DNA of 11,138 bases from a virus. Taxonomy: Duplodnaviria > Heunggongvirae > Uroviricota > Caudoviricetes. Location: the IMG/VR virus record IMGVR_UViG_2617270964_000013; one strand, 5' to 3'. A program made the position numbers and the translations under genes. Below, one piece after another: positions 1 through 11,138 of this stretch; the stretch's first letter is position 1; the number at the start of each line of letters is the position of its first letter. The notes under the pieces are model-generated. The model saw only the letters and a list, made by a program, of their open reading frames with translations, did no database searches and was not told the DNA's origin.

Positions 1-465
1 CATTTGGAAGAAACGGTAAAACAGGCCGCTGGAGCGATGCAGAAAAGTGCAAACGGTGGTGATATTCAGAATGTGGCCGCTTTCAGAAATGCCCTTCAGC
101 TTGGTACGGCGGCACTGGCCTCTATGGGAGTGGGAAAAAATCAGGTATTGAGTGCATCAGATTTCTCTTTCTTCGCCGGTGGAAATGGCTATTTGTATAT
201 TCCTTGTCTTGCAACCACAGATAATCCGGTAAAGATAATGCTGCAGTGGGGAACCATACGGACACGCGGCGGAGAGAATAATATCTACAACCTGCCCTAT
301 GCATTTCCAACCGCAGGTCTGTGGGCTATGGGATGCAGAGCAGCGAATGGCTACAGCCAGTCAATGAATGTCAGTATAGAAAATCGGTCTCAAATCAGGA
401 TCCAAAACTGGGCGCCAGCAGGGGCGGTAGAAGATTGCTGTTTCTTCGCTGTGGGGTATTTATGA
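1..465 (+). CDS. Tail fibre protein, C-terminal variable (receptor-binding) part; 5' end lies upstream of the window
   Basis: Frame 1 is open from base 1 to the TGA at 463-465 (the track's start at 4 is a TTG, not a real start). The translation shares a short motif with the opposite-strand cassette at 1276..1845 (FRNALQLGTAAL here, FREALNLGNAAL there). It is immediately followed by a tail-fibre assembly gene with an ATGA stop/start overlap. Confidence 0.75.
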   Translation, partial: HLEETVKQAAGAMQKSANGGDIQNVAAFRNALQLGTAALASMGVGKNQVLSASDFSFFAGGNGYLYIPCLATTDNPVKIMLQWGTIRTRGGENNIYNLPYAFPTAGLWAMGCRAANGYSQSMNVSIENRSQIRIQNWAPAGAVEDCCFFAVGYL

Positions 466-878
466 ATAAATTTTATCAGGGTGTTTTTTATCCGGAAGCA
501 CTTAAAGATGCCTATGTTTCTGCCGGAACGTGGCCGGAACATGCTGCCGATGTGAGTGATGAGGCAATGGCTGTTTATAGCCAGTACCCACCGGAAGGGA
601 AAATGCTGGGAACGGATAATAATGGTTATCCTGTGTGGGTTGACATCCCCTCCCTGTCGCCTGAAGAACGAGTTGCCCGGGCTGAGCAAACACGACGTGA
701 TTTACGTACGCGGGCGGATTCTGAAATAGCCTGGCGACAGGATGCTGTTGACGCGGATATCGCGACGGATGAGGAAACCGCCGCGTTGTCTGAGTGGAAG
801 AAGTACCGGGTACTGTTAATGCGGGTTGATACAGCAAAACCCGTATGGCCTACACCTCCGGGGGAACAGGCCAGTTAA
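462..878 (+). CDS. Tail fibre assembly chaperone (Tfa; P2 gpG / Mu U family)
   Basis: ATG at 462 overlaps the fibre stop (ATGA). The C-terminus LSEWKKYRVLLMRVDTAKPVWPTPP is the hallmark Tfa C-terminal motif. The track's longer ORF from 321 would overlap the fibre gene in another frame, so the 462 start is preferred. Confidence 0.85.
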   Translation: MNKFYQGVFYPEALKDAYVSAGTWPEHAADVSDEAMAVYSQYPPEGKMLGTDNNGYPVWVDIPSLSPEERVARAEQTRRDLRTRADSEIAWRQDAVDADIATDEETAALSEWKKYRVLLMRVDTAKPVWPTPPGEQAS

Positions 879-1272
879 TATGCTCAGGGTTGGTTGTCAC
901 ATCAACCGCCTTAACTTCATTCTTATACGCCAGCCATGCCGACAGTTTAGCTCTGTTGGTGTCGCTGATTTCATCCAGCATTAGTTCCGTTCGCCAGTCG
1001 AGCATTACCGCGTCAGCATGAGTCAGCAGCTGTTGGCGCACCTGTTCAGCAATGGTGATCAATTCTTCATGGGTGGGCGGCGGGATATCACCCCATGCAG
1101 GCAGGCCGTCACTGCCTGCAACTCTCATTTTCCCTGCTGGCGGCACCTGGAATTCGGAGAAAGTATCGTCATCCACCTCAACGCCATTCTCCGGCCATGT
1201 TCCGGCAGCAATATATCTGTCTTTCAATGCGAGAGGGAAAAAACACTGCGTTTTGTTGTCAAATATGTACAT
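850..1272 (-). CDS. Alternative tail fibre assembly chaperone (Tfa') inside the invertible segment
   Basis: 140 aa ending LSAWLAYKNEVKAVDVTTNPEHINWPVPP, the same Tfa C-terminal signature. Its 3' end overlaps the + strand Tfa 3' end (850-878), the tail-to-tail arrangement typical of Mu G / P1 C / e14 P segments. Confidence 0.85.
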   Translation of the reverse strand: MYIFDNKTQCFFPLALKDRYIAAGTWPENGVEVDDDTFSEFQVPPAGKMRVAGSDGLPAWGDIPPPTHEELITIAEQVRQQLLTHADAVMLDWRTELMLDEISDTNRAKLSAWLAYKNEVKAVDVTTNPEHINWPVPPEV

Positions 1273-1275
1273 ACA

Positions 1276-1845
1276 TTATCTCCCTATAGCTAAAAACCGG
1301 GCGTTAACCTGTCCCGCTGCGGCAAGGACAGGAATATTTCCAGACTGCGCGTAAAAGGCGTTCCATGAGAATTGGTCGTTCCATTCCCCATTTACCACCG
1401 TATAAGCCTGGTAGGTTCCTGCCACCTGAAAACCACACACAATGACCATTAAGCATTCGTTTGGAAAGGGTATCGGGAACTTTGAAACGGTTGTACGCCG
1501 GTCTTCACATGGTGTGTTTCCCCATTGAAGAATTAGCCCACCAGGAAGATACTGATAGCCATTCACTTCTTGATTAGATAAAAATGCAGACATATCAGGC
1601 AATTGCCCTTGCCCGGTTCCTGTGTTTTTTAATGCCGCGTTACCCAAATTCAGGGCTTCTCTGAAGTTTTCAGCCTCTACTCTTTCACCGTTAACACCTG
1701 CTTTCAAGGAAAGCAGGTAAGTAATGGCATTCTGGCTCATGACGTCTTTAACTGAATCTCCTCCGCTCTGAAGAACCCTGCTTTTTGCCGCTTCTCCCAA
1801 ACCAACGTTTAAGAAAATGCAGAGATTACGGCTAACTGGCATCAT
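1276..1845 (-). CDS. Alternative tail fibre C-terminal cassette (Sv'-type), promoterless, expressed only after inversion as a fusion to the constant fibre N-terminus
   Basis: 189 aa ORF immediately upstream (on the - strand) of Tfa'. It shares the FRxALxLGxAAL block with the + strand fibre C-terminus but is otherwise diverged. The frame is open only 3 codons upstream of the Met-Met (stop at 1855-1857), which fits a crossover point at about 1848-1849. Confidence 0.7.
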   Translation of the reverse strand: MMPVSRNLCIFLNVGLGEAAKSRVLQSGGDSVKDVMSQNAITYLLSLKAGVNGERVEAENFREALNLGNAALKNTGTGQGQLPDMSAFLSNQEVNGYQYLPGGLILQWGNTPCEDRRTTVSKFPIPFPNECLMVIVCGFQVAGTYQAYTVVNGEWNDQFSWNAFYAQSGNIPVLAAAGQVNARFLAIGR

Positions 1846-1861
1846 CCCCGGTTTTTATTCA
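1836..1861. promoter_or_regulatory. Candidate 26-bp invertase crossover site (gix/hix/cix-like), right end of the invertible segment
   Basis: CTGGCATCATCC-CC-GGTTTTTATTCA. The outer half GGTTTTTATTCA matches the recalled Hin/Gin-family half-site GGTTTTTGATAA at 9 of 12 positions; the inner half overlaps the Met-Met codons of the Sv' cassette and is less conserved. The partner site is not in the window. Confidence 0.4.
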
Positions 1862-1872
1862 GGGGATCCATC

Positions 1873-2472
1873 ATGCTTATTGGCTATGTCCGCGTATCAA
1901 CAAATGACCAGAATACAGAATTGCAGCGTAACGCGCTGGAGTGCGCAGGATGTGAACTGATTTTTGAAGATAAAATCAGCGGAACGAAATCAGCCAGACC
2001 GGGATTGAAAAAACTGCTCAGAACGCTATCAGAAGGAGATACGCTGGTTGTCTGGAAGCTGGACAGACTGGGCAGAAGTATGAAACACCTGATCACGCTT
2101 ATTGAGGAATTGCGGGAAAAAGGTGTTAATTTCCGTAGTCTGACGGACAGCATTGACACATCAACACCCATGGGGCGTTTCTTTTTTCACGTCATGGGAG
2201 CTTTAGCCGAAATGGAACGTGAATTAATTGTAGAGCGTACACTGGCCGGGCTGGCAGCAGCACGCGCACAAGGACGCATTGGCGGACGTCGCCCGAAGTT
2301 GACAAAAGAACAACACGAGCAAATAGCGAGGCTGATTAAAAACGGTCATGACAGGAAACAACTGGCGATCATTTACGACATCGGCATATCGACGATTTAT
2401 CGTTATCACCCTGTAGGCGATATACAGGCTGAAGAAACAACCAGGCAGACTCAGGAAAATGAAAACCGCTAA
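1873..2472 (+). CDS. Site-specific DNA invertase, small serine recombinase (Gin/Pin/Cin/Hin family)
   Basis: 199 aa beginning MLIGYVRVSTNDQNT, with the catalytic Ser in the YVRVSTNDQ motif, conserved VVWKLDRLGRS and GRIGGRRPKLT blocks, and a C-terminal HTH region. GGGGA RBS 6 nt upstream of the ATG. By analogy with Hin/Gin, a Fis-dependent recombinational enhancer would sit in the first ~150 bp of the coding sequence; not verified here. Confidence 0.92.
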   Translation: MLIGYVRVSTNDQNTELQRNALECAGCELIFEDKISGTKSARPGLKKLLRTLSEGDTLVVWKLDRLGRSMKHLITLIEELREKGVNFRSLTDSIDTSTPMGRFFFHVMGALAEMERELIVERTLAGLAAARAQGRIGGRRPKLTKEQHEQIARLIKNGHDRKQLAIIYDIGISTIYRYHPVGDIQAEETTRQTQENENR

Positions 2473-2491
2473 TCTGACCATTAGCGGTTTT
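2462..2491. terminator. Bidirectional intrinsic terminator between the convergent invertase and gpU genes
   Basis: Perfect inverted repeat AAAACCGCTAAT / ATTAGCGGTTTT (12-bp stem) around a 6-nt loop CTGACC, with A/T runs on both sides. The invertase stop codon lies inside the stem. Confidence 0.55.
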
Positions 2492-2498
2492 GCGTTAA

Positions 2499-2993
2499 TC
2501 AAAACAGCCCTTTAACGGAGCTGGCCGCGCTGTTAAGGGATGATGTGACCTTATCTTTGAAGCCGGACAGCATATCACTGAACGATGAGGATTGCAGGCG
2601 CTCCCGCAAATCCTCATCACAGCGTTCAAGAGTCAGTGAAAATTCTATCTTTTTCGCCTTACCGTAGCGATCAAACTCGGAGCGGGTCGTATTCGTTCCG
2701 GTCAGGACATACATGCCGTAAATCTGCCCGACACCATCAATCAGAGGCCAGGGGCGTCCTGTATATGCCTGCGTGGTCAGCAACGAAAGCGACACTTCGC
2801 CACCTGTAATTTCAGGATAAAGCACGCCGGAAAGCACGATGCGATCATCACCTGCGCCGATATACTGCCAGCTTGCTGAACGGTTAACGCGTTCATTTTT
2901 CACATGCCGCCAGCTTTTGTTTTGCTGTAACTGCTGATGCGGCAATGTGCGCAGCTCAAAAACAAACATGCCGTAGATCATCATCATGGCCAT
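2499..2993 (-). CDS. P2 gpU-like tail protein
   Basis: 164 aa ORF starting 6 nt after the tape-measure stop, with GAGGAG just upstream. Its size and position directly after T match P2 gene U. The start could be any of several clustered Met codons (2979-2993). Confidence 0.7.
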   Translation of the reverse strand: MAMMMIYGMFVFELRTLPHQQLQQNKSWRHVKNERVNRSASWQYIGAGDDRIVLSGVLYPEITGGEVSLSLLTTQAYTGRPWPLIDGVGQIYGMYVLTGTNTTRSEFDRYGKAKKIEFSLTLERCDEDLRERLQSSSFSDMLSGFKDKVTSSLNSAASSVKGLF

Positions 2994-2999
2994 GACTCC

Positions 3000-5816
3000 T
3001 CAATCTTTATCGTAAAAACTGCCACGTCCGGCACGGTCGCGTCGTTCCAATTCTGCCCTGACCATTTCACCGACCAGTTTCGCCAGTTCGCGGGGATTCT
3101 GCGTAACAACGTTATGCAGATGAACATGAATTTCACCGCCAAATCCGGAGACAACAGGCTCCCGGTTACGGGAAGTTGCAGGAACTGATGCCACTGGCGA
3201 TCGTATGGCCTCCGCCACCGGGCGGGAGCTGGCCGCAACAACAGGGACCAGCGCCGGAGGCAGAGGAGTCGGGACCACGGGTGTGATGTTGATTGCGGAA
3301 GCAGGCTTACTGACCTGCGCAATCTTCCGCTCCTGCCACTCCCCACGAACAGCAAGTGCGCGGGGCAGATTCTTAAAGACAATATCGCCGGGGCCAATGC
3401 GTTTTTTCGTCTCATCAACCAGCTTACCTGTGTTATCAGCAATTTTGCTGAGTCTGCGTAGCGTACCGGTATTGCTGTCTGTGAGCGGTTTGTTGTCTTT
3501 GGGTTTATCACCTCCGGTGCCATTGCCATTTTCCACAGGCTTCGGCGGATTGATTTTCGCCAGGTCCCCCTGAAGCAAGGCAACCTTGTCCTGAAGAATG
3601 GCCGCACGCTGTGCGTCTTCGATTTTCTTGCGCGCCCTTTCCGCTTCATCCGGAAGGACGCCAAGTTTTTCAAGTATCCACGCCAGCGTATCCAGTAGCA
3701 TTTTTGCAGGCGTCAGAACAAGTTGTAACGCACCGCCAAGAACGTTACCGAATATCTCGCCAGCACTGGTACATTTATCCAGCGTTTCCTTGCTGGACTC
3801 CATCGGTGACAACAGCGATTTAAACCAGTTAAACACCTGGCTGATCCCGCTTCCGATTGCGTCAAAAACAGGACCAAACCGTTCAAAGGTTTCGCGCAAC
3901 GGGGTCAGCCTTTCCATAATCCCGCTGAACACCCCGGCAAAAAATGCCTTAATGGGTTCCCAGTATTTCCAGATGAGAACCGCCGCAGCCACAAACGCAG
4001 CAGCAATCAATCCAACCGGACTGAACAGCGCCCCGATAGCGCCTCCCAGCAAAGAAACAGAACCCGTCAGCATTCCCCACAGCGCAGGCAACACCCGGAC
4101 GACATTCATTGACCGGGTAAGAATGTCAAAACCAAGACGCAGGGTGGCCAGCTTTCCGTAAAGCACCCCAATAACCAGCGACAACGAGCCAATCGTTGCA
4201 GTCATTGCCAGCAACGCACCGCCTGCTATCAGTAGCTGGCGCGTCAGTACCGGATGGGCCTGCGCCAGCGAGGTGATTTTTTCAAGCACCCGCGTGAGCC
4301 ACTGCGTGACAGAACGCAGCGGACCGTCAACCAGATCACTGATGCGAATACGAAGACCTTCCCATGCGCTGTCGAGATTTTTCAGGTCCCCATCAAGATT
4401 ATCGGCCATTACTTTTGCAACGCGATCGGCCTCTCCCCTTGCCCCCTGCAATTCTCTGGTCAGTTTTTGCAGCTCTCCTGAACCAGCCGCCGCAACAAGC
4501 GTCTGTAAACCAACGAACGCCTCTTCTCCGGCGATGTCCTTGAAGAAGGAAATCTGGTCCACCTGTCCGTATTTTTGTGTCGCCTTATAGAGATCAAGCA
4601 GCACATCCTCCATCGGGCGCATTTTGCCTCTGGCGTCAGCAACTGACACCCCCAGCTCTTTCAGTGCATCAGCCGCAGCTTTTGGCGGTGATGCAAGGCG
4701 GGACAGACTTGCGCGCATGGCCGTACCAGCATCGCTTCCGCGAAGACCATTATTGGCAAGCATCCCGGCCATGGCCGCCGCTTCTTGAAGACTGATACCA
4801 AGTTTTGCGGCAACCGGACCGGTATACTTCATGGTTTCGCCCAGCGCGCGTAAATCAGTATTGGTCCGGGTGAATGCTGCTGTCAGCGTATCGCCAACCC
4901 GGTCCATTTGATCGGCTGTCAGGTTGAACTGTGTGAGGATATTGGAGCCTATATCAGCCGTCTCGCCGAGTTCGACGCCACCTGCCAGCGCCATATTAAG
5001 AACACCGGGCAATGCGGCCTGAATGGCCTGCGGAGTAAAACCAGCCATTGCCAGAAAGCTCTGCCCACTGGCGGCATCACTCGCAGTAAACTGTGTTTCA
5101 GAACCAAGTTTTAACGCCTGCTCACGCAGCGCCTTAAACTGCGGGCTGTTTTTGTCGATTCGCGTCAGAGCCTGAACGCGGGACATCTCTTTCCCGAACC
5201 CGATCGCAGGCTGCAAAAAACGCCCGGCAGCATAGCCGCCAGCCGCTGCCGCACCAATTGCCAGCGCACCACCTGTTTTCAGTTTTCCCGCGGTTTCCTG
5301 CGCGCGCGAATACCGCTCACGCGCCCGCGTTACACGCGCAAGCGCCTGCCGTTCGCGTTCAAGCTGGTTGTTGTACTGTTCGGTGCGTCTGATGGCCTGC
5401 TGGATGGTGTTATCGCTGCCTGTCAGGGAAATGCCGTGGCGTTTCAGCTCTCCGCCAAGTTCCCGCATTTTCTGAATTTCCCGTGTGCGCGATTCATTCA
5501 GGCGTTCAAGCCGGGTGCTTAACTGCTGCATCAGCTTTTGTTGTTTTTCGCTGAGCACTGTACCCGTGCGTTGTAACTGATTAAGGGCGTTAAGCTGGCG
5601 TCGTGCTTTCACGATGCCCGCATCCGCTTTACTGACAGCGTCACGGGCGCGCTCAAATGAACGCGCCTGACGCTCGAGATTTTTGATCGCCCCCTGCGTT
5701 CGCTGGATGGAGTCACCAAACTGCCCCATCAGGCGGCGGGCGTTTTCGGCAGGCCGGGTCAGCCTGTCAACGGCGCTGAAAGCGACCCGGATATCAAGAG
5801 TCTTCATTGTCTGCAT
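3000..5816 (-). CDS. Tail tape measure protein (P2 gpT-like)
   Basis: 938 aa. Long coiled-coil-like, Ala/Leu/Arg/Gln-rich N-terminal third, hydrophobic Gly/Ala-rich central segments, and a position between E/E' and U. Its start is overlapped by the E' reading frame. Confidence 0.85.
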   Translation of the reverse strand: MQTMKTLDIRVAFSAVDRLTRPAENARRLMGQFGDSIQRTQGAIKNLERQARSFERARDAVSKADAGIVKARRQLNALNQLQRTGTVLSEKQQKLMQQLSTRLERLNESRTREIQKMRELGGELKRHGISLTGSDNTIQQAIRRTEQYNNQLERERQALARVTRARERYSRAQETAGKLKTGGALAIGAAAAGGYAAGRFLQPAIGFGKEMSRVQALTRIDKNSPQFKALREQALKLGSETQFTASDAASGQSFLAMAGFTPQAIQAALPGVLNMALAGGVELGETADIGSNILTQFNLTADQMDRVGDTLTAAFTRTNTDLRALGETMKYTGPVAAKLGISLQEAAAMAGMLANNGLRGSDAGTAMRASLSRLASPPKAAADALKELGVSVADARGKMRPMEDVLLDLYKATQKYGQVDQISFFKDIAGEEAFVGLQTLVAAAGSGELQKLTRELQGARGEADRVAKVMADNLDGDLKNLDSAWEGLRIRISDLVDGPLRSVTQWLTRVLEKITSLAQAHPVLTRQLLIAGGALLAMTATIGSLSLVIGVLYGKLATLRLGFDILTRSMNVVRVLPALWGMLTGSVSLLGGAIGALFSPVGLIAAAFVAAAVLIWKYWEPIKAFFAGVFSGIMERLTPLRETFERFGPVFDAIGSGISQVFNWFKSLLSPMESSKETLDKCTSAGEIFGNVLGGALQLVLTPAKMLLDTLAWILEKLGVLPDEAERARKKIEDAQRAAILQDKVALLQGDLAKINPPKPVENGNGTGGDKPKDNKPLTDSNTGTLRRLSKIADNTGKLVDETKKRIGPGDIVFKNLPRALAVRGEWQERKIAQVSKPASAINITPVVPTPLPPALVPVVAASSRPVAEAIRSPVASVPATSRNREPVVSGFGGEIHVHLHNVVTQNPRELAKLVGEMVRAELERRDRAGRGSFYDKD

Positions 5817-6323
5817 TCCCGCTGCGAAGTGCCGCCCGCTCGCGCCAGCTAACCACTTCGCCGGGCGTCATCATGAAGATTTCGGCGGGCGACCAGTTAA
5901 AAATGGCGGCAATATCCGCCACCAGATCTTCGATGTGCTCAAAGCACACAACCGTGATCAGGCTTCCGTCGCCTGTTCGTTCTTCCCGCCAGAGTCCGCA
6001 CCGCTCAAAAAATTTACGGCAACCACACATAACTGAATAAAGTCACGGGATGCCATTTTTTTGATCGTCACTTCATCCAGTCGCGGTGATGTCACGCGTG
6101 ACAGCAGCGTAAACATGGATTCCGCTTTCAGATTCAGCACATCAGACAGCGACAAATCTCGCAGAGATCCAGCCTGCTCAATAGCCCCGGTGATCTCCAC
6201 ATACGTGATTTTTTCGCCGCCTCGCTCAATTGGTTGGGTAAGTTTTACGCCACGCTCACTGGTTTCTTTCACAGTGTCAGTAACTACCGTGTTTTCGGTA
6301 TCGATGTTTTTCGTCTCTTTCAT
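5794..6323 (-). CDS. E+E' tail chaperone made by programmed -1 translational frameshift
   Basis: On the - strand the E frame reads GTA AAT TTT TTG AGC (..VNFLS..). A -1 slip on T TTT TTG enters the overlapping frame (..KFFERCGLWREERTG..), which stays open to the TGA at 5794-5796 and overlaps the T start at 5816. Confidence 0.7.
5958..6323 (-). CDS. Tail assembly chaperone E (P2 gpE-like)
   Basis: 121 aa ORF with an AAGGAG RBS 7 nt upstream of the ATG at 6321-6323. It lies between the tube and tape-measure genes and contains the slippery heptamer near its 3' end. Confidence 0.8.
   Translation of the reverse strand: MKETKNIDTENTVVTDTVKETSERGVKLTQPIERGGEKITYVEITGAIEQAGSLRDLSLSDVLNLKAESMFTLLSRVTSPRLDEVTIKKMASRDFIQLCVVAVNFLSGADSGGKNEQATEA
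6006..6012 (-). promoter_or_regulatory. Slippery heptamer T TTT TTG (recoding signal for E/E')
   Basis: Read directly on the - strand; the same heptamer is used in the P2 E/E' frameshift. Confidence 0.7.
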
Positions 6324-6377
6324 CAGGAAACTCCTTTCAGTCAGAGGCGACGCACTGCGCCGCCTGCATATTACTTA

Positions 6378-6890
6378 TCAGCCAAGCCCAAGCGCGGAAC
6401 GGATGCGATCAGGCACAATATCCTTGCCGTCCTTCCGGTAAATGAAGTTCAGCAGGTCAATCTCCCACAACGGACGATCGTTAACACTCAGCTTGTAGTA
6501 GGTGTTTTTAATGGCGTAAGTGTGTGATGTGGCTTCGCCCTGTTTGGCTTCCCCCATATCAATTTCCGTCACACGTCCGCGCATTTCGACTTCATACAGG
6601 TCGCTTTCTGCATCGGTGTAGTATTCACCCGCAAAACGCAGCAGCGTGCCGTCAATCGTGCCGCCATACTTAAGGAACAGCTCACGAACTGCGCCCCCCA
6701 TGACAAAGCTCGCATCAAGCGCGGAGTCGTCCAGACCGAGATCAATACTTACCGCACCCATCATGCCGCCACCCCGGTAGCTGTCGGTTTTGCGCGTCAG
6801 CTTAGGCAGAGTGACGGACGTCACCTTACCCACTTCGTTTTCACCATCCACAAACAGCGTAAAAAAGCGAAGATGTTTTGGCACAGCCAT
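6378..6890 (-). CDS. Tail tube protein (P2 FII-like)
   Basis: 170 aa. The motif VTLPKLTRK...YRGGGMMG...DLGLDD is typical of the P2 FII tube family. The ATG overlaps the FI stop (TGATG), with GGGAGG 6 nt upstream. Confidence 0.88.
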   Translation of the reverse strand: MAVPKHLRFFTLFVDGENEVGKVTSVTLPKLTRKTDSYRGGGMMGAVSIDLGLDDSALDASFVMGGAVRELFLKYGGTIDGTLLRFAGEYYTDAESDLYEVEMRGRVTEIDMGEAKQGEATSHTYAIKNTYYKLSVNDRPLWEIDLLNFIYRKDGKDIVPDRIRSALGLG

Positions 6891-8074
6891 CAGGCACCTC
6901 CCAGCACCGCAAATGCGGGTTCAAAGTATTCATCAGTAAACGTCTGGTAAAGCTCCATGTCTTCCAGCGGGGGAACAGGCGTATATTTGTAGCGAATACG
7001 CACACGCCCCTGACGTAAATCCGTGGTGCTGTTATCCACCACGTCATACCAGCACTCCGCGCCAATCAGTTTCCCGGCAGTAACCAGTGAATCCAGTTTT
7101 GCCCTGATGGCACTGATAACATCCTTCACGTTCGCAGGCGTCAGTGGACTGTCGATGGTTTCAAACTGCGCTTCCGCAATTGAATCAGCCAGCACCTGTG
7201 CGGTTCGGGTATACACCTCAAAGATGTAGGCGTTCGTTTCCGGTGTGCGGTTGCCCCAGAAGCGGAACCCGTTGCGACGAATAATGGTCGTGATTTCTTT
7301 GTTGTTGAGGCTGTTGGCATCGCTGTCTTCGGCCTGCAACGACCAGAACACATGCCTCGACATCCCCAGCACATTTTTAACCGGAACGTTGGACAGTGAT
7401 TTGTGCCATCCCTGCTCATGGTCAATGTACGCACGAAGGCCGCACGCATAGGCAGACGCGGGGAACGTTTCGTTTTTGCCACTTTTCGGGTTGTAGGCGA
7501 TGAAGTCCGGCCATAAGAGCATCACCTCACGTTCGTTGAATTTCTGGCGGTAGGTAATCGCCTCAGCCATCGTGTTACAGCCGTGACATGAGGCATACAC
7601 AAACGCGCGCAGTTTACCTGCAATCACGCACAGGGATTTTGTTACAGCCTCCGTGTCCAGCTCCGGCGCGGCCAGAATACGCGGACGGTATCCGATGCTT
7701 TCATCCTGCTCTGCAACAAGCAGCGCATACATCCCCGTATAGCTGCCGTCATCCTCAGAACCACCGATAACCAGTTGATCCTGCGTCTTTCCGTCTTCTT
7801 CTTTGTGTTCAGCCACGCGAACGACGATCACCTTTGTGCTCACCTGGTCTGCGATGGCCTTAAGCGCACGATAAAGCGTCCCCGTTGTCCCGCATTTTCC
7901 CAGCACGTCATTGACGCGGGTCAGCAGTGTTGGCTTGTTCAGCGGGAACAGCTTCGCGTCCGCATCATCCGCCGTTGCCACGATACCGATAACACTGGAA
8001 TCAACATCGTTAATCGCTGTTACCAGGTCGGTATTTTCCGTAACACGGGCACCATGAAAACGAGTTTCACTCAT
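6890..8074 (-). CDS. Contractile tail sheath protein (P2 FI-like)
   Basis: 394 aa with P2 FI-like blocks (FPLNKP, LRAFVYAS, EQGWHKSLSNV, IRRNGFRFWGNRT, YKYTPVPPLE). First gene of the - strand tail operon. Confidence 0.9.
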   Translation of the reverse strand: MSETRFHGARVTENTDLVTAINDVDSSVIGIVATADDADAKLFPLNKPTLLTRVNDVLGKCGTTGTLYRALKAIADQVSTKVIVVRVAEHKEEDGKTQDQLVIGGSEDDGSYTGMYALLVAEQDESIGYRPRILAAPELDTEAVTKSLCVIAGKLRAFVYASCHGCNTMAEAITYRQKFNEREVMLLWPDFIAYNPKSGKNETFPASAYACGLRAYIDHEQGWHKSLSNVPVKNVLGMSRHVFWSLQAEDSDANSLNNKEITTIIRRNGFRFWGNRTPETNAYIFEVYTRTAQVLADSIAEAQFETIDSPLTPANVKDVISAIRAKLDSLVTAGKLIGAECWYDVVDNSTTDLRQGRVRIRYKYTPVPPLEDMELYQTFTDEYFEPAFAVLGGA

Positions 8075-8231
8075 AGCTTCAGCCCCTTGTATCCGTTAAA
8101 TGATTCGGCAACAATCATCACCCACCACGCGCGTAATCTCACCCCTGCGCCATTCTCCCGCCACGGCGACAACAAAAAGCAGTAACCCCCTCCGCACGCA
8201 CATGCGACCATGCCACACAGGGAGGGAGCAG
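8075..8231. promoter_or_regulatory. Divergent intergenic region between the FI operon and gpD; presumed late promoters
   Basis: 157 bp between two divergent start codons. No canonical Ogr box TGT-N12-ACA was found by eye, so this is inferred from position only. Confidence 0.3.
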
Positions 8232-9329
8232 ATGACCGACACCACCATGCAATTGCTCAGTCAGGGCACAGACCCCGTGAAAATGCCGGATTTTGATATT
8301 CTCGCGGAGGGTAAAACGCTGTCAGGCGTGGCAGAGCGCCTGATGAGCCTGTCACTGACCGACAACCGGGGATTTGAGGCGGACCAGCTCACCATCACGC
8401 TGGATGATGCGGATGGTCAGTTGCAGCTACCGCCACGGGGCGCGCGCCTGACGGTTCTCATTGGCTGGAAAGGAGAACCGCTGACAGAAAAAGGCACTTA
8501 CATTGTTGATGAAATCGCTCACGAAGGACCGCCGGACAGGCTGACTGTTTCAGCCAGAAGCGCAGATTTTCGGGATGAATTTAACGTTAAACGTGAGGTG
8601 TCCTGGCATGATGTGACCGTTGAGCGTGTGGTATCCGCCATCGCTCATCGGTACGGTCTGAAACCGCAAATCAGCGAAATGCTGATGGATATCGAAATCG
8701 ACCACGCCGACCAGACCGAAGAAAGCGACATGTCCTTCCTTACGCGCATGGCGGAAATGTTGGGCGCAATCACCACGGTAAAAAGCGGTAATCTGTTATT
8801 CATCATGCCAGGCGGTGGCGTGAACGCACAGGGCCAGCCGTTGCCATCGTTCGCCATCACGCGCAGCAGTGGCGATCGCCATCAGTTCCGCATTGCTGAC
8901 CGCGAAGCGTATACGGGGGTACGCGCTTACTGGCTTGATCTTAATTACGGGAAAAAGAAAAAAGTCAGCGTGAAACGCCGCAAACCGAAAAAGGAGAAAA
9001 GCAGCAGTCGGGAAGGCGATTATATGGAAGGTGCGGAAGGCAACGTGTTTGTGTTACGCAAGACTTATCAGAACGAGCAGGCAGCAAGACGTGCAGCAGC
9101 GGCAAAGTGGCAGCAGCTACAACGCGGAGCCGCATCATTCTCCATCACGCTGGCGCGTGGACGCGCAGAACTCTACCCCGAAATGCATGGCACGGTAACA
9201 GGATTTAAAAGCGAGATTGATAATCAGGACTGGATTATTGCAAAAGCCGAGCACACCATTGATAACAGCGGCTTTACCACACAGCTTGAGCTTGAAGCAA
9301 AAATCCCGGAATGGATAGCAGAAACATAG
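8232..9329 (+). CDS. P2 gpD-like tail protein (late control protein D family)
   Basis: Start chosen at the ATG at 8232 (MTDTTMQLL..), which has a GGAGGG RBS 6 nt upstream; the track's start at 8100 has no RBS and is probably an artefactual extension. About 365 aa with gpD-like character. Confidence 0.75.
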   Translation: MTDTTMQLLSQGTDPVKMPDFDILAEGKTLSGVAERLMSLSLTDNRGFEADQLTITLDDADGQLQLPPRGARLTVLIGWKGEPLTEKGTYIVDEIAHEGPPDRLTVSARSADFRDEFNVKREVSWHDVTVERVVSAIAHRYGLKPQISEMLMDIEIDHADQTEESDMSFLTRMAEMLGAITTVKSGNLLFIMPGGGVNAQGQPLPSFAITRSSGDRHQFRIADREAYTGVRAYWLDLNYGKKKKVSVKRRKPKKEKSSSREGDYMEGAEGNVFVLRKTYQNEQAARRAAAAKWQQLQRGAASFSITLARGRAELYPEMHGTVTGFKSEIDNQDWIIAKAEHTIDNSGFTTQLELEAKIPEWIAET

Positions 9330-9545: not shown

Positions 9546-10370
9546 TTATTCTTGTTGAAAATGAAGAGAACACTCTATAGGTGATTCTTCATTAAACTGT
9601 TCAAATAGCTCAATCATACGATAACGGCTAATTCCCACTATTGTTCCATCTTTTTTAAAAGACAAACCAATTCCAGCCAAAAGAAATGTTGACTCCAGTT
9701 CTTTTTTTAATTCTTGCCCCTTAGAGAAAAAATACATTGCACCACCACTCATTCCCTCTGGAGAAGGGCCTTTACTTACCTGTCCTTTATATTTTAAATC
9801 TATATTCTTAACATTGTATGTTCCTGTTATTTCAATTTTATTGAATGTTTTAACCTCGGATATTATAGTGAAATACTTGGCATTTTTAAAAAACAGGCCA
9901 TCTTCGTTAGAAGCTACCGTTTGATTTACTATTGAACTAGGGCGTTTTGTTCTGTGAATTGTTTGTGTTTTGCACCAGTTTTTAGGGAAGCCTGTCCATG
10001 CAAAATGTTTCTTATCAAATCCAATAAAATTGAAATTATCTTTAAGCGAGAAATAATTTTTCCCATCAAGTATCATATTAAAGCAATCGACAATGACTAA
10101 ATCATCTTCTTCAAAAATTCGATGTCCTATAGAGATACTAGTCAAAGCAAAAAATTCACCATCAGAACCCAGTATGTAAATATTTCTGATGTCATCTTTA
10201 TCCCTCAGAGCATGAGCAGCAAAAACCACATAGTGTGATTGCTTGTAATATATAAACGTTCCAGTCGATGAATAATTATAATCGCCTAGTTCATTTCGTA
10301 TGTAGAGCGGAATAACAAATTTTTGTGATTGTCTATCATAACTATCAGATTGATATTTAAAGTCAGTCAT
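9546..10370 (-). CDS. Predicted cytoplasmic trypsin-fold (S1/Trypsin_2-like) serine peptidase; AT-rich cargo gene of unknown role
   Basis: 274 aa. Motifs in canonical order: GTFIYY..HYVVFAAHAL (His53, TAAHC-like), EEDDLVIVD (Asp90, D-I-A-L-L-like), PEGMSGGAMYF (Ser208, GDSGG-like), then GTIVGI. The N-terminus is hydrophilic with no signal-peptide-like stretch. Only long ORF in the island. Confidence 0.6.
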   Translation of the reverse strand: MTDFKYQSDSYDRQSQKFVIPLYIRNELGDYNYSSTGTFIYYKQSHYVVFAAHALRDKDDIRNIYILGSDGEFFALTSISIGHRIFEEDDLVIVDCFNMILDGKNYFSLKDNFNFIGFDKKHFAWTGFPKNWCKTQTIHRTKRPSSIVNQTVASNEDGLFFKNAKYFTIISEVKTFNKIEITGTYNVKNIDLKYKGQVSKGPSPEGMSGGAMYFFSKGQELKKELESTFLLAGIGLSFKKDGTIVGISRYRMIELFEQFNEESPIECSLHFQQE

Positions 10371-10867: not shown

Positions 10868-11131
10868 ATGGTCGGAGGGAATACCCGAAGGCCAGATGTG
10901 GAAAGGCCCCGGAAAACATACCTGTTTAACCGAGGCCCTAACCGCATTACCTTGACAAGTGAAAGGTTAGCGCCTCTCCAGAAAAGGAGCAAGTGCTATG
11001 TCGCAAAAATCGCTTACGGCCATCACGTTCTGCGTGACGGCAATCCTCATCATCTGGATGCTGCACGGTTCACTGTGCGAAATACGGATGAGCTTCTGGG
11101 GAGCGGAGTTTGCGGCGTTCTTACAGTGTAA
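10868..11131 (+). CDS. Possible Mok-like overlapping reading frame (translational coupling frame for the hok-like gene)
   Basis: 87-codon ORF in another frame, starting upstream of and overlapping nearly all of the hok-like ORF, as mok overlaps hok. No clear RBS and no recognisable protein features. Confidence 0.25.
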   Translation: MVGGNTRRPDVERPRKTYLFNRGPNRITLTSERLAPLQKRSKCYVAKIAYGHHVLRDGNPHHLDAARFTVRNTDELLGSGVCGVLTV

Positions 11132-11138
11132 GCAGTAA
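10998..11138 (+). CDS. Hok/Gef-family-like type I toxin (small membrane peptide)
   Basis: 46 aa MSQKSLTAITFCVTAILIIWMLHGSLCEIRMSFWGAEFAAFLQCKQ. It has a hydrophobic transmembrane stretch and SLCEIR plus E-x-AAF blocks resembling Hok (KSLCEIRYRDGHREVAAF). GGAG RBS 8 nt upstream. The stop codon is the last 3 bases of the window. Confidence 0.5.
   Translation: MSQKSLTAITFCVTAILIIWMLHGSLCEIRMSFWGAEFAAFLQCKQ

What the first reader, a model, noticed from the sequence alone, without database searches (positions are those of the whole stretch)
1..2472. Invertase-driven tail-fibre switch: two fibre C-terminus plus chaperone cassettes in opposite orientation next to a Gin/Pin-family invertase
The + strand carries a fibre C-terminus and Tfa; the - strand carries Tfa' and a promoterless, diverged fibre C-terminal cassette that starts almost exactly at the putative crossover site. 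Inversion of the roughly 1.85-kb segment would swap the receptor-binding tip and its chaperone. The mechanism class is well known (Mu G, P1 C, e14 P), but the two cassettes share only short blocks, which suggests different receptor specificities.
Basis: partly seen in the sequence, partly recalled or inferred. Interest (0 to 1): 0.5.

Follow-up and report, generated by a model that had tools for sequence, protein, structure and literature searches.

The report
Invertible phage tail-fibre tip switch
This is a textbook DNA-flipping switch in a P2-family prophage of E. coli that lets the phage swap the tip of its tail fibre, and probably its host range; it is real, apparently intact, and already well known.

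Summary
Window 1-2472 carries a tail-fibre C-terminal cassette plus chaperone on the + strand. A second, diverged cassette plus chaperone lies on the - strand, followed by an intact 199-aa Gin/Pin-family serine invertase.

A 26-bp crossover site (1792-1817) lies inside the - strand cassette and matches e14 pixR at 25 of 26 positions. The partner site is half inside the window. Bases 1-12 are its inner half, and the source contig ends 2 nt upstream, on the site's central TT.

Inversion would give an in-frame fusion of the other cassette to the constant fibre part. Near-identical copies of the 1.8-kb segment occur in both orientations in sister prophages, with exchange exactly at the central dinucleotide. 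A 97.5%-identical invertase in the same phage lineage (EPEC E2348/69) sits beside a fibre locus published as flipping in culture.

The system is a routine instance of a known kind (Mu G/Gin, P1 C/Cin, e14 P/Pin). Flipping of this particular copy, the enhancer and the receptor specificities remain inferred.

Side notes:
- The invertase is a mosaic.
- The segment travels between unrelated tail types.
- An unannotated trypsin-fold protease gene sits between gpD and ogr.

The parts
1..12 (+). Inner half-site of the left crossover site (CATTTGGAAGAA). The central TT and the outer half lie off the window.
   Evidence: Contig JHDG01000125.1 (L004) has only 'TT' before window base 1. The full site TTCTCGCATACC TT CATTTGGAAGAA is seen in L003 and L005, which carry the same segment.
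1..465 (+). Fibre C-terminal cassette A. It is open from base 1 and, by inference, currently joined to the constant fibre part.
   Evidence: Pfam Gp53-like_C, E=1.2e-7. It is identical to the C-terminus of the 430-aa P2-type fibre in L005. It is also the C-terminus of the fused fibres P0115, P0116 and P0119.
462..878 (+). Tail-fibre assembly chaperone A (Tfa)
   Evidence: Pfam Caudo_TAP, E=2.8e-32.
850..1272 (-). Tail-fibre assembly chaperone B (Tfa'), convergent with Tfa and overlapping it by 29 nt
   Evidence: Pfam Caudo_TAP, E=2.2e-30. It is 41% identical to chaperone A.
1276..1803 (-). Fibre C-terminal cassette B, silent in this orientation. The mechanical ORF extends to ATG 1845.
   Evidence: Pfam Gp53-like_C, E=2.3e-15. 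In other prophages it is fused to at least six different N-termini, and similarity always starts at 'GLGEAAKS', which is the crossover site. No sigma-70-like promoter was found upstream on the - strand.
1792..1817 (.). Right crossover site (pix-type), with core AA at 1804-1805
   Evidence: 18/20 to the consensus; the best of 100 shuffles scored 15. 25/26 identical to the e14 site. Similarity to other genomes breaks at 1781-1805.
1873..2472 (+). Gin/Pin-family serine DNA invertase, 199 aa. It is a mosaic: the N-terminal part is Pin-like and the C-terminal part is P88-like.
   Evidence: It is 194/199 identical to the EPEC E2348/69 prophage invertase. The 5' 368 nt are collinear with L018 at 95%.
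1894..1957 (.). Candidate Fis-dependent recombinational enhancer inside the 5' end of the invertase gene (inferred)
   Evidence: Two G-N13-C 15-mers lie at 1894-1908 and 1943-1957. Synonymous codons are unusually conserved in codons 1-15 across pin, gin and this gene.
2462..2491 (.). 12-pair hairpin between the convergent invertase and gpU genes; probable two-way terminator
   Evidence: Terminator scan.

Best explanation
This is a Pin/Gin-type invertible tail-fibre segment in a P88-like (Xuanwuvirus-type, P2-family) prophage of E. coli.

The constant N-terminal part of fibre gene H lies just off the window. It reads through a 26-bp crossover site into cassette A (1-465), followed by chaperone A.

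The invertase (1873-2472) would bind the left site and the right site (1792-1817). By inference it would use host Fis bound to an enhancer in its own 5' coding region. It would cut at the 2-bp cores (TT/AA) and turn the 1.81-kb segment round.

The constant part would then read in frame into cassette B ('...YL|GLGEAAKS...'), with chaperone B behind it. Cassette A and chaperone A would become silent.

A lysogen population would therefore release virions with one of two receptor-binding tips.

- **Shown:** the anatomy, site identity, frame conservation, invertase integrity, and natural flips of the same segment type in sister elements.
- **Inferred:** activity of this copy, Fis dependence, and different receptors.
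For: - **Genes and domains:**
- **Invertase:** E=1.3e-91 to the Gin structure, with S9 present. It is 82% identical to PinE, 73% to Gin and 88% to the P88_4B11 invertase.
- **Residues tied to Fis and enhancer contact:** residues said to be specific to Fis/enhancer-dependent invertases are Hin Q151/R154/L155 and basic residues at 47/48/51 (PMC3798978). They are present here as Q150/R153/L154 and K46/K47/R50.
- **Right site:** 25/26 identical to the e14 site.
- **Spacing:** the distance from site to start codon differs by 1 bp from Mu gixR-gin.
- **Left site:** half is in the window and the whole is in L003 and L005.
- **In-frame fusions:** the same N-termini are found joined to either cassette, as P0115/P0003, P0116/P0007 and P0119/P0002.
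- **Clean natural inversion:** L023 vs L022, with flanks 99.9% identical, 1817 bp inverted and exchange at the core. L023 is collinear with window 1-2313 at 91%.
- **All four junction types:** seen in L021, L020 and L002.
- **Published flipping in culture:** reported for e14 and for the fibre locus of an EPEC E2348/69 P2-type prophage (PMC4272514). That prophage is 92% identical in DNA to window 1873-5610, and its invertase is 97.5% identical.
Against: - No read-level data exist for this strain.
- The outer half of the left site and the constant fibre part are not in the window or its contig.
- The flipped state was not found for this exact combination of P88-like invertase flank and this segment. 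Only three contigs carry the junction ORF, and they were found through that ORF, so the sample is biased.
- Five near-identical O157:H7 relatives with another segment are all in one orientation.
- The two candidate Fis cores are 49 bp apart by my assignment, not the 48 bp I recall for Hin.
- Locked derivatives exist: L003 has lost the invertase after 95 nt.
Confidence: 0.88

Rival explanations
1. Frozen switch. The anatomy is that of an invertible segment, but this copy no longer flips, for example because the left site or the fibre gene is damaged off-window. The - strand cassette would then be a fossil.
For: The contig ends exactly at the left site, so its outer half is unseen. Locked relatives exist. 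L003 has lost the invertase after 95 nt. L022-L024 have a truncated pin-like gene.
Against: The invertase is full length with all catalytic and Fis-contact residues. The right site is 25/26 identical to an active e14 site. Both cassettes and both chaperones are open and 98-100% identical to copies that are expressed elsewhere.
Confidence: 0.08
2. The main pay-off of the inversion is to the lysogen rather than the virion. As reported for PinQ acting on the e14 P segment, one orientation would make a fibre-derived protein that blocks adsorption of other phages. The invertase may also act in trans on other prophages.
For: PMC12529663 reports that PinQ inverts the 1797-bp e14 segment in trans and that the resulting chimeric protein StfE2 blocks T2 adsorption. 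The window's right site is nearly identical to the e14 site.
Against: Unlike e14, this prophage has a complete tail module: sheath, tube, tape measure, gpU and gpD. The fibre switch therefore has its ordinary virion role. Nothing here tests defence.
Confidence: 0.03
3. Assembly artefact. The segment and the invertase would have been joined wrongly at a repeated crossover site.
For: The contig stops at a crossover core, which is where assemblies tend to break.
Against: The same right junction (segment, site, invertase start) occurs in three independent assemblies. It is also collinear at 95% over window 1-2240 in L018.
Confidence: 0.01

Closest known systems
e14 P segment with PinE (E. coli K-12 cryptic prophage)
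   Same: The layout is the same: fibre C-terminus, Tfa, reversed Tfa', reversed fibre C-terminus, then invertase. The right crossover site is 25/26 identical, with the same TT/AA cores. The invertase is 82% identical and its upstream leader is similar. The segments are close in size: 1797 bp in e14 against about 1.81 kb here.
   Different: e14 is a defective lambdoid remnant, while this is a P2-family prophage with a full tail module. The cassettes are unrelated or only distantly related to StfP, StfE, TfaP and TfaE. The invertase C-terminal third is P88-like and has a 15-residue tail that PinE lacks.
Phage Mu G segment with Gin
   Same: The mechanism and gene order are the same. The invertase is 73% identical and matches the solved Gin structure at E=1.3e-91. 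The site-to-start-codon spacing is within 1 bp.
   Different: Mu uses a GA/TC core and a 3-kb segment. Its fibre tips S and S' are far larger and of another type.
Fibre invertons of the P2-type prophages of EPEC E2348/69 (Goldberg et al. 2014, PMC4272514)
   Same: The prophage at 1.89 Mb belongs to the same phage lineage. It has the same order, invertase then convergent gpU and tape measure, with 92% DNA identity and a 194/199 identical invertase. Inversion was measured in culture.
   Different: That locus has three sites and four variants, so it is a small shufflon. Its cassettes differ, and its right site differs in the outer half.
Phage P88 / Xuanwuvirus P88_4B11
   Same: The genome order is the same, including the tail operon FI to U on the opposite strand to H and D. 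DNA identity is 82-85% across invertase and gpU.
   Different: P88_4B11 carries Mu-like cassettes, gix-like sites with a GA core and a Gin-like invertase N-terminus.

Membership tests
Fis/enhancer-dependent DNA invertases (Gin, Cin, Pin, Hin) | Small serine recombinase: N-terminal catalytic domain with the Ser nucleophile, and a C-terminal helix-turn-helix | tested here: met
   Resolvase E=6e-52 plus HTH_7 E=1.4e-12. S9, R7, D64, R65 and R68 are invariant in the alignment. The alignment to Gin 4m6f is full length, E=1.3e-91.
Fis/enhancer-dependent DNA invertases (Gin, Cin, Pin, Hin) | Invertase-specific residues that contact Fis and the enhancer (Hin Q151, R154, L155; basic residues 47, 48, 51) | tested here: met
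   The feature is taken from PMC3798978. This protein has Q150, R153, L154 and K46, K47, R50; Hin numbering is one higher.
Fis/enhancer-dependent DNA invertases (Gin, Cin, Pin, Hin) | Two 26-bp imperfectly palindromic crossover sites in inverted orientation with matching 2-bp cores | tested here: inconclusive
   The right site is complete: 1792-1817, core AA. For the left site, only the inner half (window 1-12) and the core TT (contig end) are available for this genome. The full left site is seen only in L003 and L005.
Fis/enhancer-dependent DNA invertases (Gin, Cin, Pin, Hin) | Recombinational enhancer with two Fis sites in the 5' part of the invertase gene | tested here: inconclusive
   Two G-N13-C cores lie at 1894-1908 and 1943-1957, 49 bp apart. 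Synonymous codons match in 11/14 to 13/15 of codons 1-15, against 0-64% in the blocks from codon 61 onward; codons 31-60 are also high in some pairs. The DNA in this stretch is nearly invariant across four genes. Fis binding was not tested.
Fis/enhancer-dependent DNA invertases (Gin, Cin, Pin, Hin) | Both orientations coexist in a clonal population | not testable with these tools
   This needs reads or PCR from the strain. Indirect support comes from natural flips in sister elements and published flipping in the EPEC relative.
Invertible tail-fibre segments (Mu G, P1 C, e14 P) | Two alternative fibre C-termini, each with its own chaperone, in opposite orientation between the sites, with the constant N-terminus outside | tested here: met
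   The constant part is seen in L005.
Invertible tail-fibre segments (Mu G, P1 C, e14 P) | The crossover site lies inside the fibre reading frame, and both orientations give in-frame fusions | tested here: met
   The fusions '...YL|HLEETVKQ' and '...YL|GLGEAAKS' occur with identical N-termini in P0115/P0003, P0119/P0002 and P0116/P0007.
Invertible tail-fibre segments (Mu G, P1 C, e14 P) | The two tips confer different receptor or host specificity | not testable with these tools
   The only evidence is divergence: 31% identity. Neither cassette has a solved relative; the best PDB E-values are 0.01 and 0.06.
P88-like (Xuanwuvirus) P2-family prophage | Gene order: H, tfa, inverted cassettes, invertase, then U-T-E-FII-FI on the opposite strand, then D and ogr | tested here: met
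   The window ORFs follow the same order as P88_4B11, FRIK944 and EPEC.

The most novel reading that the evidence does not exclude
The 1.8-kb segment may be a self-contained portable module. It occurs at 91-99.8% identity in at least four different tail-gene contexts: P88-like, classical P2 order, Mu-like baseplate, and a DUF2612-type baseplate. Similarity stops within a few bases of the crossover core (98.8-99.8% identical pairs align to window 1805 and 1810). It sits next to two invertases that are only 51% identical. This would fit invertases themselves occasionally catalysing exchange of whole cassettes between co-resident prophages, rather than only intramolecular inversion.
Probability: 0.12. 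Interest if true: 0.45.

Novelty: already known. Interest (0 to 1): 0.1.

Why it matters
It matters little beyond annotation. It tells an annotator three things:
- the 189-aa 'hypothetical protein' at 1276-1845 is the silent half of a fibre gene;
- the fibre gene of this prophage has two products;
- the contig break at base 1 coincides with a recombination site.

For phage engineers, the pair of Gp53-like tips with matched chaperones is a ready-made exchangeable receptor-binding module. It demonstrably works on several tail types.

Tried and rejected
- **A recent invertase-driven inversion of the tail operon.** I first suspected that FI to U (2499-8074) on the opposite strand to H and D was such an inversion. 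I rejected this. The same order is found in P88_4B11, FRIK944, LR-46 and EPEC, and no further crossover-like site exists in the window.
- **The flipped state of this exact element.** The junction ORF is found in only three contigs. No fusion of about 449 aa, P2-type constant part plus cassette B, is in the protein collection. Five near-identical O157:H7 prophages with another segment all have one orientation. This led nowhere for this copy, but the protein search with cassette A did find flipped sister elements.
- **The pair P0116/P0007.** It is not a simple flip: L019 has a different second cassette.
- **Relatives with solved structures for the two tips.** Only marginal hits appeared, to an R2 pyocin fibre at E=0.014 and to Mu S/S' at E=0.06. 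I did not model the tips.
- **Fetching a review by PMC id.** I tried PMC4384473, an id recalled from memory for a review of serine invertases; no paper is held under that id.
- **Rfam scan of the window.** No match.
Full report
**What is in the sequence**

The window is the last 11,138 bases of contig JHDG01000125.1 of assembly GCA_000601135.1. Locus L004 reproduces it exactly and has only two further bases, TT, before window base 1.

The finding's region holds five coding elements:
- An open frame on the + strand from base 1 to 465, ending in a Gp53-like_C domain.
- A Caudo_TAP chaperone at 462-878 on the + strand.
- A second Caudo_TAP chaperone at 850-1272 on the - strand.
- A second Gp53-like_C cassette at 1276-1803 on the - strand. 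The mechanical ORF runs to an ATG at 1845.
- A 199-aa protein at 1873-2472 on the + strand, with Resolvase and HTH_7 domains.

The two fibre cassettes are 31% identical over 98 residues. The two chaperones are 41% identical. They are diverged homologues, not unrelated sequences that share short blocks.

A 12-pair hairpin at 2462-2491 separates the invertase from the convergent gpU gene.

**The crossover sites**

A scan with the palindromic consensus of Gin/Cin/Pin/Hin sites finds one site in the window. It is TTCTCCCAAACCAACGTTTAAGAAAA at 1792-1817, with 18 of 20 specified positions matched. The best score in 100 shuffles of the window was 15. The site differs at one base from the site next to pinE in e14 of E. 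coli K-12. Its core dinucleotide AA is at 1804-1805.

Similarity of the window to thousands of E. coli records starts or stops at 1781-1805. This is what module exchange at such sites predicts.

In two other assemblies with the same segment (L003, L005), the sequence before window base 1 reads TTCTCGCATACC TT, followed by CATTTGGAAGAA. So window 1-12 is the inner half-site, and the contig ends on the core TT. The cores TT and AA put the two sites in inverted orientation. The segment between the cores is about 1.81 kb.

**The invertase**

- It aligns end to end with the solved Gin protein (4m6f, E=1.3e-91).
- It is 82% identical to PinE, 73% to Gin, 88% to the P88_4B11 invertase, and 51% to the recombinase next to the same segment in strain ET846.
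- The nucleophile Ser9 and R7, D64, R65 and R68 are present.
- McLean et al. (PMC3798978) describe residues specific to Fis/enhancer-dependent invertases: Hin Q151, R154, L155 and basic residues 47, 48 and 51. They are present here as Q150, R153, L154 and K46, K47, R50.
- The wild-type Met114 of the 'ALAEMERE' helix is kept. In the alignment the Gin chains 4m6f and 3uj3 have Val at this position.

The gene is a mosaic. Its upstream leader and first 368 nt are collinear at 95% with a Mu-like-tail prophage (L018) and resemble pin. Its last third is P88-like.

**The enhancer is inferred only**

The first 15 codons show 11/14 to 13/15 identical synonymous codons between this gene, pin and gin. The blocks from codon 61 onward range from 0% to 64%, and codons 31-60 are also high in some pairs. 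The DNA in this stretch is almost invariant in four genes.

Two G-N13-C cores lie at 1894-1908 and 1943-1957, 49 bp apart. From memory the Hin spacing is 48 bp, so my register may be off by one. The distance from site to start codon matches Mu to within 1 bp.

**Does it flip?**

*Frame.* The constant part reads '...AGLLAYL|HLEETVKQ' in L005. After inversion it would read '...YL|GLGEAAKS'. Exactly these two fusions occur on identical N-termini in public proteins: P0115/P0003, P0119/P0002 and P0116/P0007.

*Clean natural inversions.*
- L023 and L022 are the same Mu-like-tail prophage at the same chromosomal place in two strains. The flanks are 99.9% identical and collinear. The central 1817 bp is 99.9% identical in reverse, and the junctions exchange at the core.
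- L023 is collinear with window 1-2313 at 91%, so it is the same module of segment, site and pin-like 5' end.
- L021, L020 and ET846 (L002) together show all four junction types for a 98-99% identical copy of the window's segment.

*Published experiments.* Goldberg et al. (PMC4272514) found coexisting orientations for e14 (51% forward) and for fibre loci in two P2-type prophages of EPEC E2348/69. The one at 1.89 Mb belongs to the same lineage as this window: 92% DNA identity over 1873-5610, and an invertase 194/199 identical.

*What remains unproven.* Flipping of this particular copy. I found no flipped instance of this exact combination.

**Context**

The phage is P88-like (Xuanwuvirus type). 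Invertase, then U, T, E, FII and FI on the - strand, then D and ogr on the + strand, is the normal order of that group. It is not a new inversion.

The segment itself is promiscuous. It occurs with a classical P2 order and a deleted invertase (L003), with P2-like baseplate genes (L005), with Mu-like baseplates (L017-L024), and with a DUF2612-type baseplate (L002).

**Why the contig stops at the core**

Two readings are open. A mixed-orientation culture would make the assembly graph branch just after TT, but it should then also branch at the right site, which was assembled through. A second prophage sharing the constant fibre part would also break the assembly here. I cannot decide between them without reads.

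**Verdict**

The system belongs to a kind described since the 1980s and measured in a near-identical relative. It is therefore already known and of low interest.

The least ordinary points are the portability of the whole segment, with breakpoints at the cores, and its association with two invertases only 51% identical.

Noticed in passing
window 9546-10370 (- strand): A 274-aa ORF lies between gpD and ogr, with GC of 30-37% against about 53% around it. It has no hit in Pfam, PHROGs, PADLOC, NCBIfam or the PDB by sequence. It has 98 homologues of about 275 aa across Gammaproteobacteria and Betaproteobacteria plus Aliarcobacter, with invariant H53, D90 and G-M-S208-G-G. The AlphaFold model has pLDDT 90.6 and a chymotrypsin fold; the top hits are thrombin, uPA and DegS. 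Homologues sit next to Abi_alpha and type I R-M genes, or next to an OLD-like ATPase and a NOV_C gene. It is a candidate stand-alone defence protease carried as a moron.
   Followed up: partly
window 1873-2472: The invertase gene is a mosaic. The leader and the first roughly 370-440 nt match a pin-like module that travels with the segment (95% to L018, 91% to L023). The 3' third matches P88-type invertases and encodes a 15-residue acidic tail absent from Pin.
   Followed up: partly
window 1 (contig end): The source contig ends exactly on the central TT of the left crossover site. This fits an assembly-graph branch at the recombination point. The cause could be mixed orientations or a second prophage sharing the constant fibre part.
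   Followed up: partly
window 2499-8074 and 8075-8234: The tail operon FI-FII-E-T-U lies on the opposite strand to H and D, unlike P2. This leaves a divergent intergenic region between FI and D. The order is conserved in P88-like phages. I found no crossover-like site at its ends.
   Followed up: partly
L003 9731-10001; L022-L024 upstream of the segment: Some relatives are locked. L003 keeps only the first 95 nt of the invertase gene next to the tail sheath gene. In L022-L024 the pin-like gene is reduced to a fragment (77 aa in L024) beside a 611-aa RVT_1 reverse transcriptase gene, yet L022 and L023 differ by an inversion.
   Followed up: no
window 10998-11138 (+ strand): A 46-aa hydrophobic ORF lies downstream of ogr and ends at the window edge. 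It has a weak Hok/Gef family hit. P88_4B11 has a 'MokW-like host killing' gene at the same place. No Rfam antisense RNA was found.
   Followed up: no
L002 (E. coli ET846) and L021: The same segment (98.8-99.8% identical) is flanked by a 182-aa recombinase only 51% identical to the window's invertase. Its outer half-site is very A-rich (TTATAAAAAAGG). The segment still appears in both orientations.
   Followed up: partly
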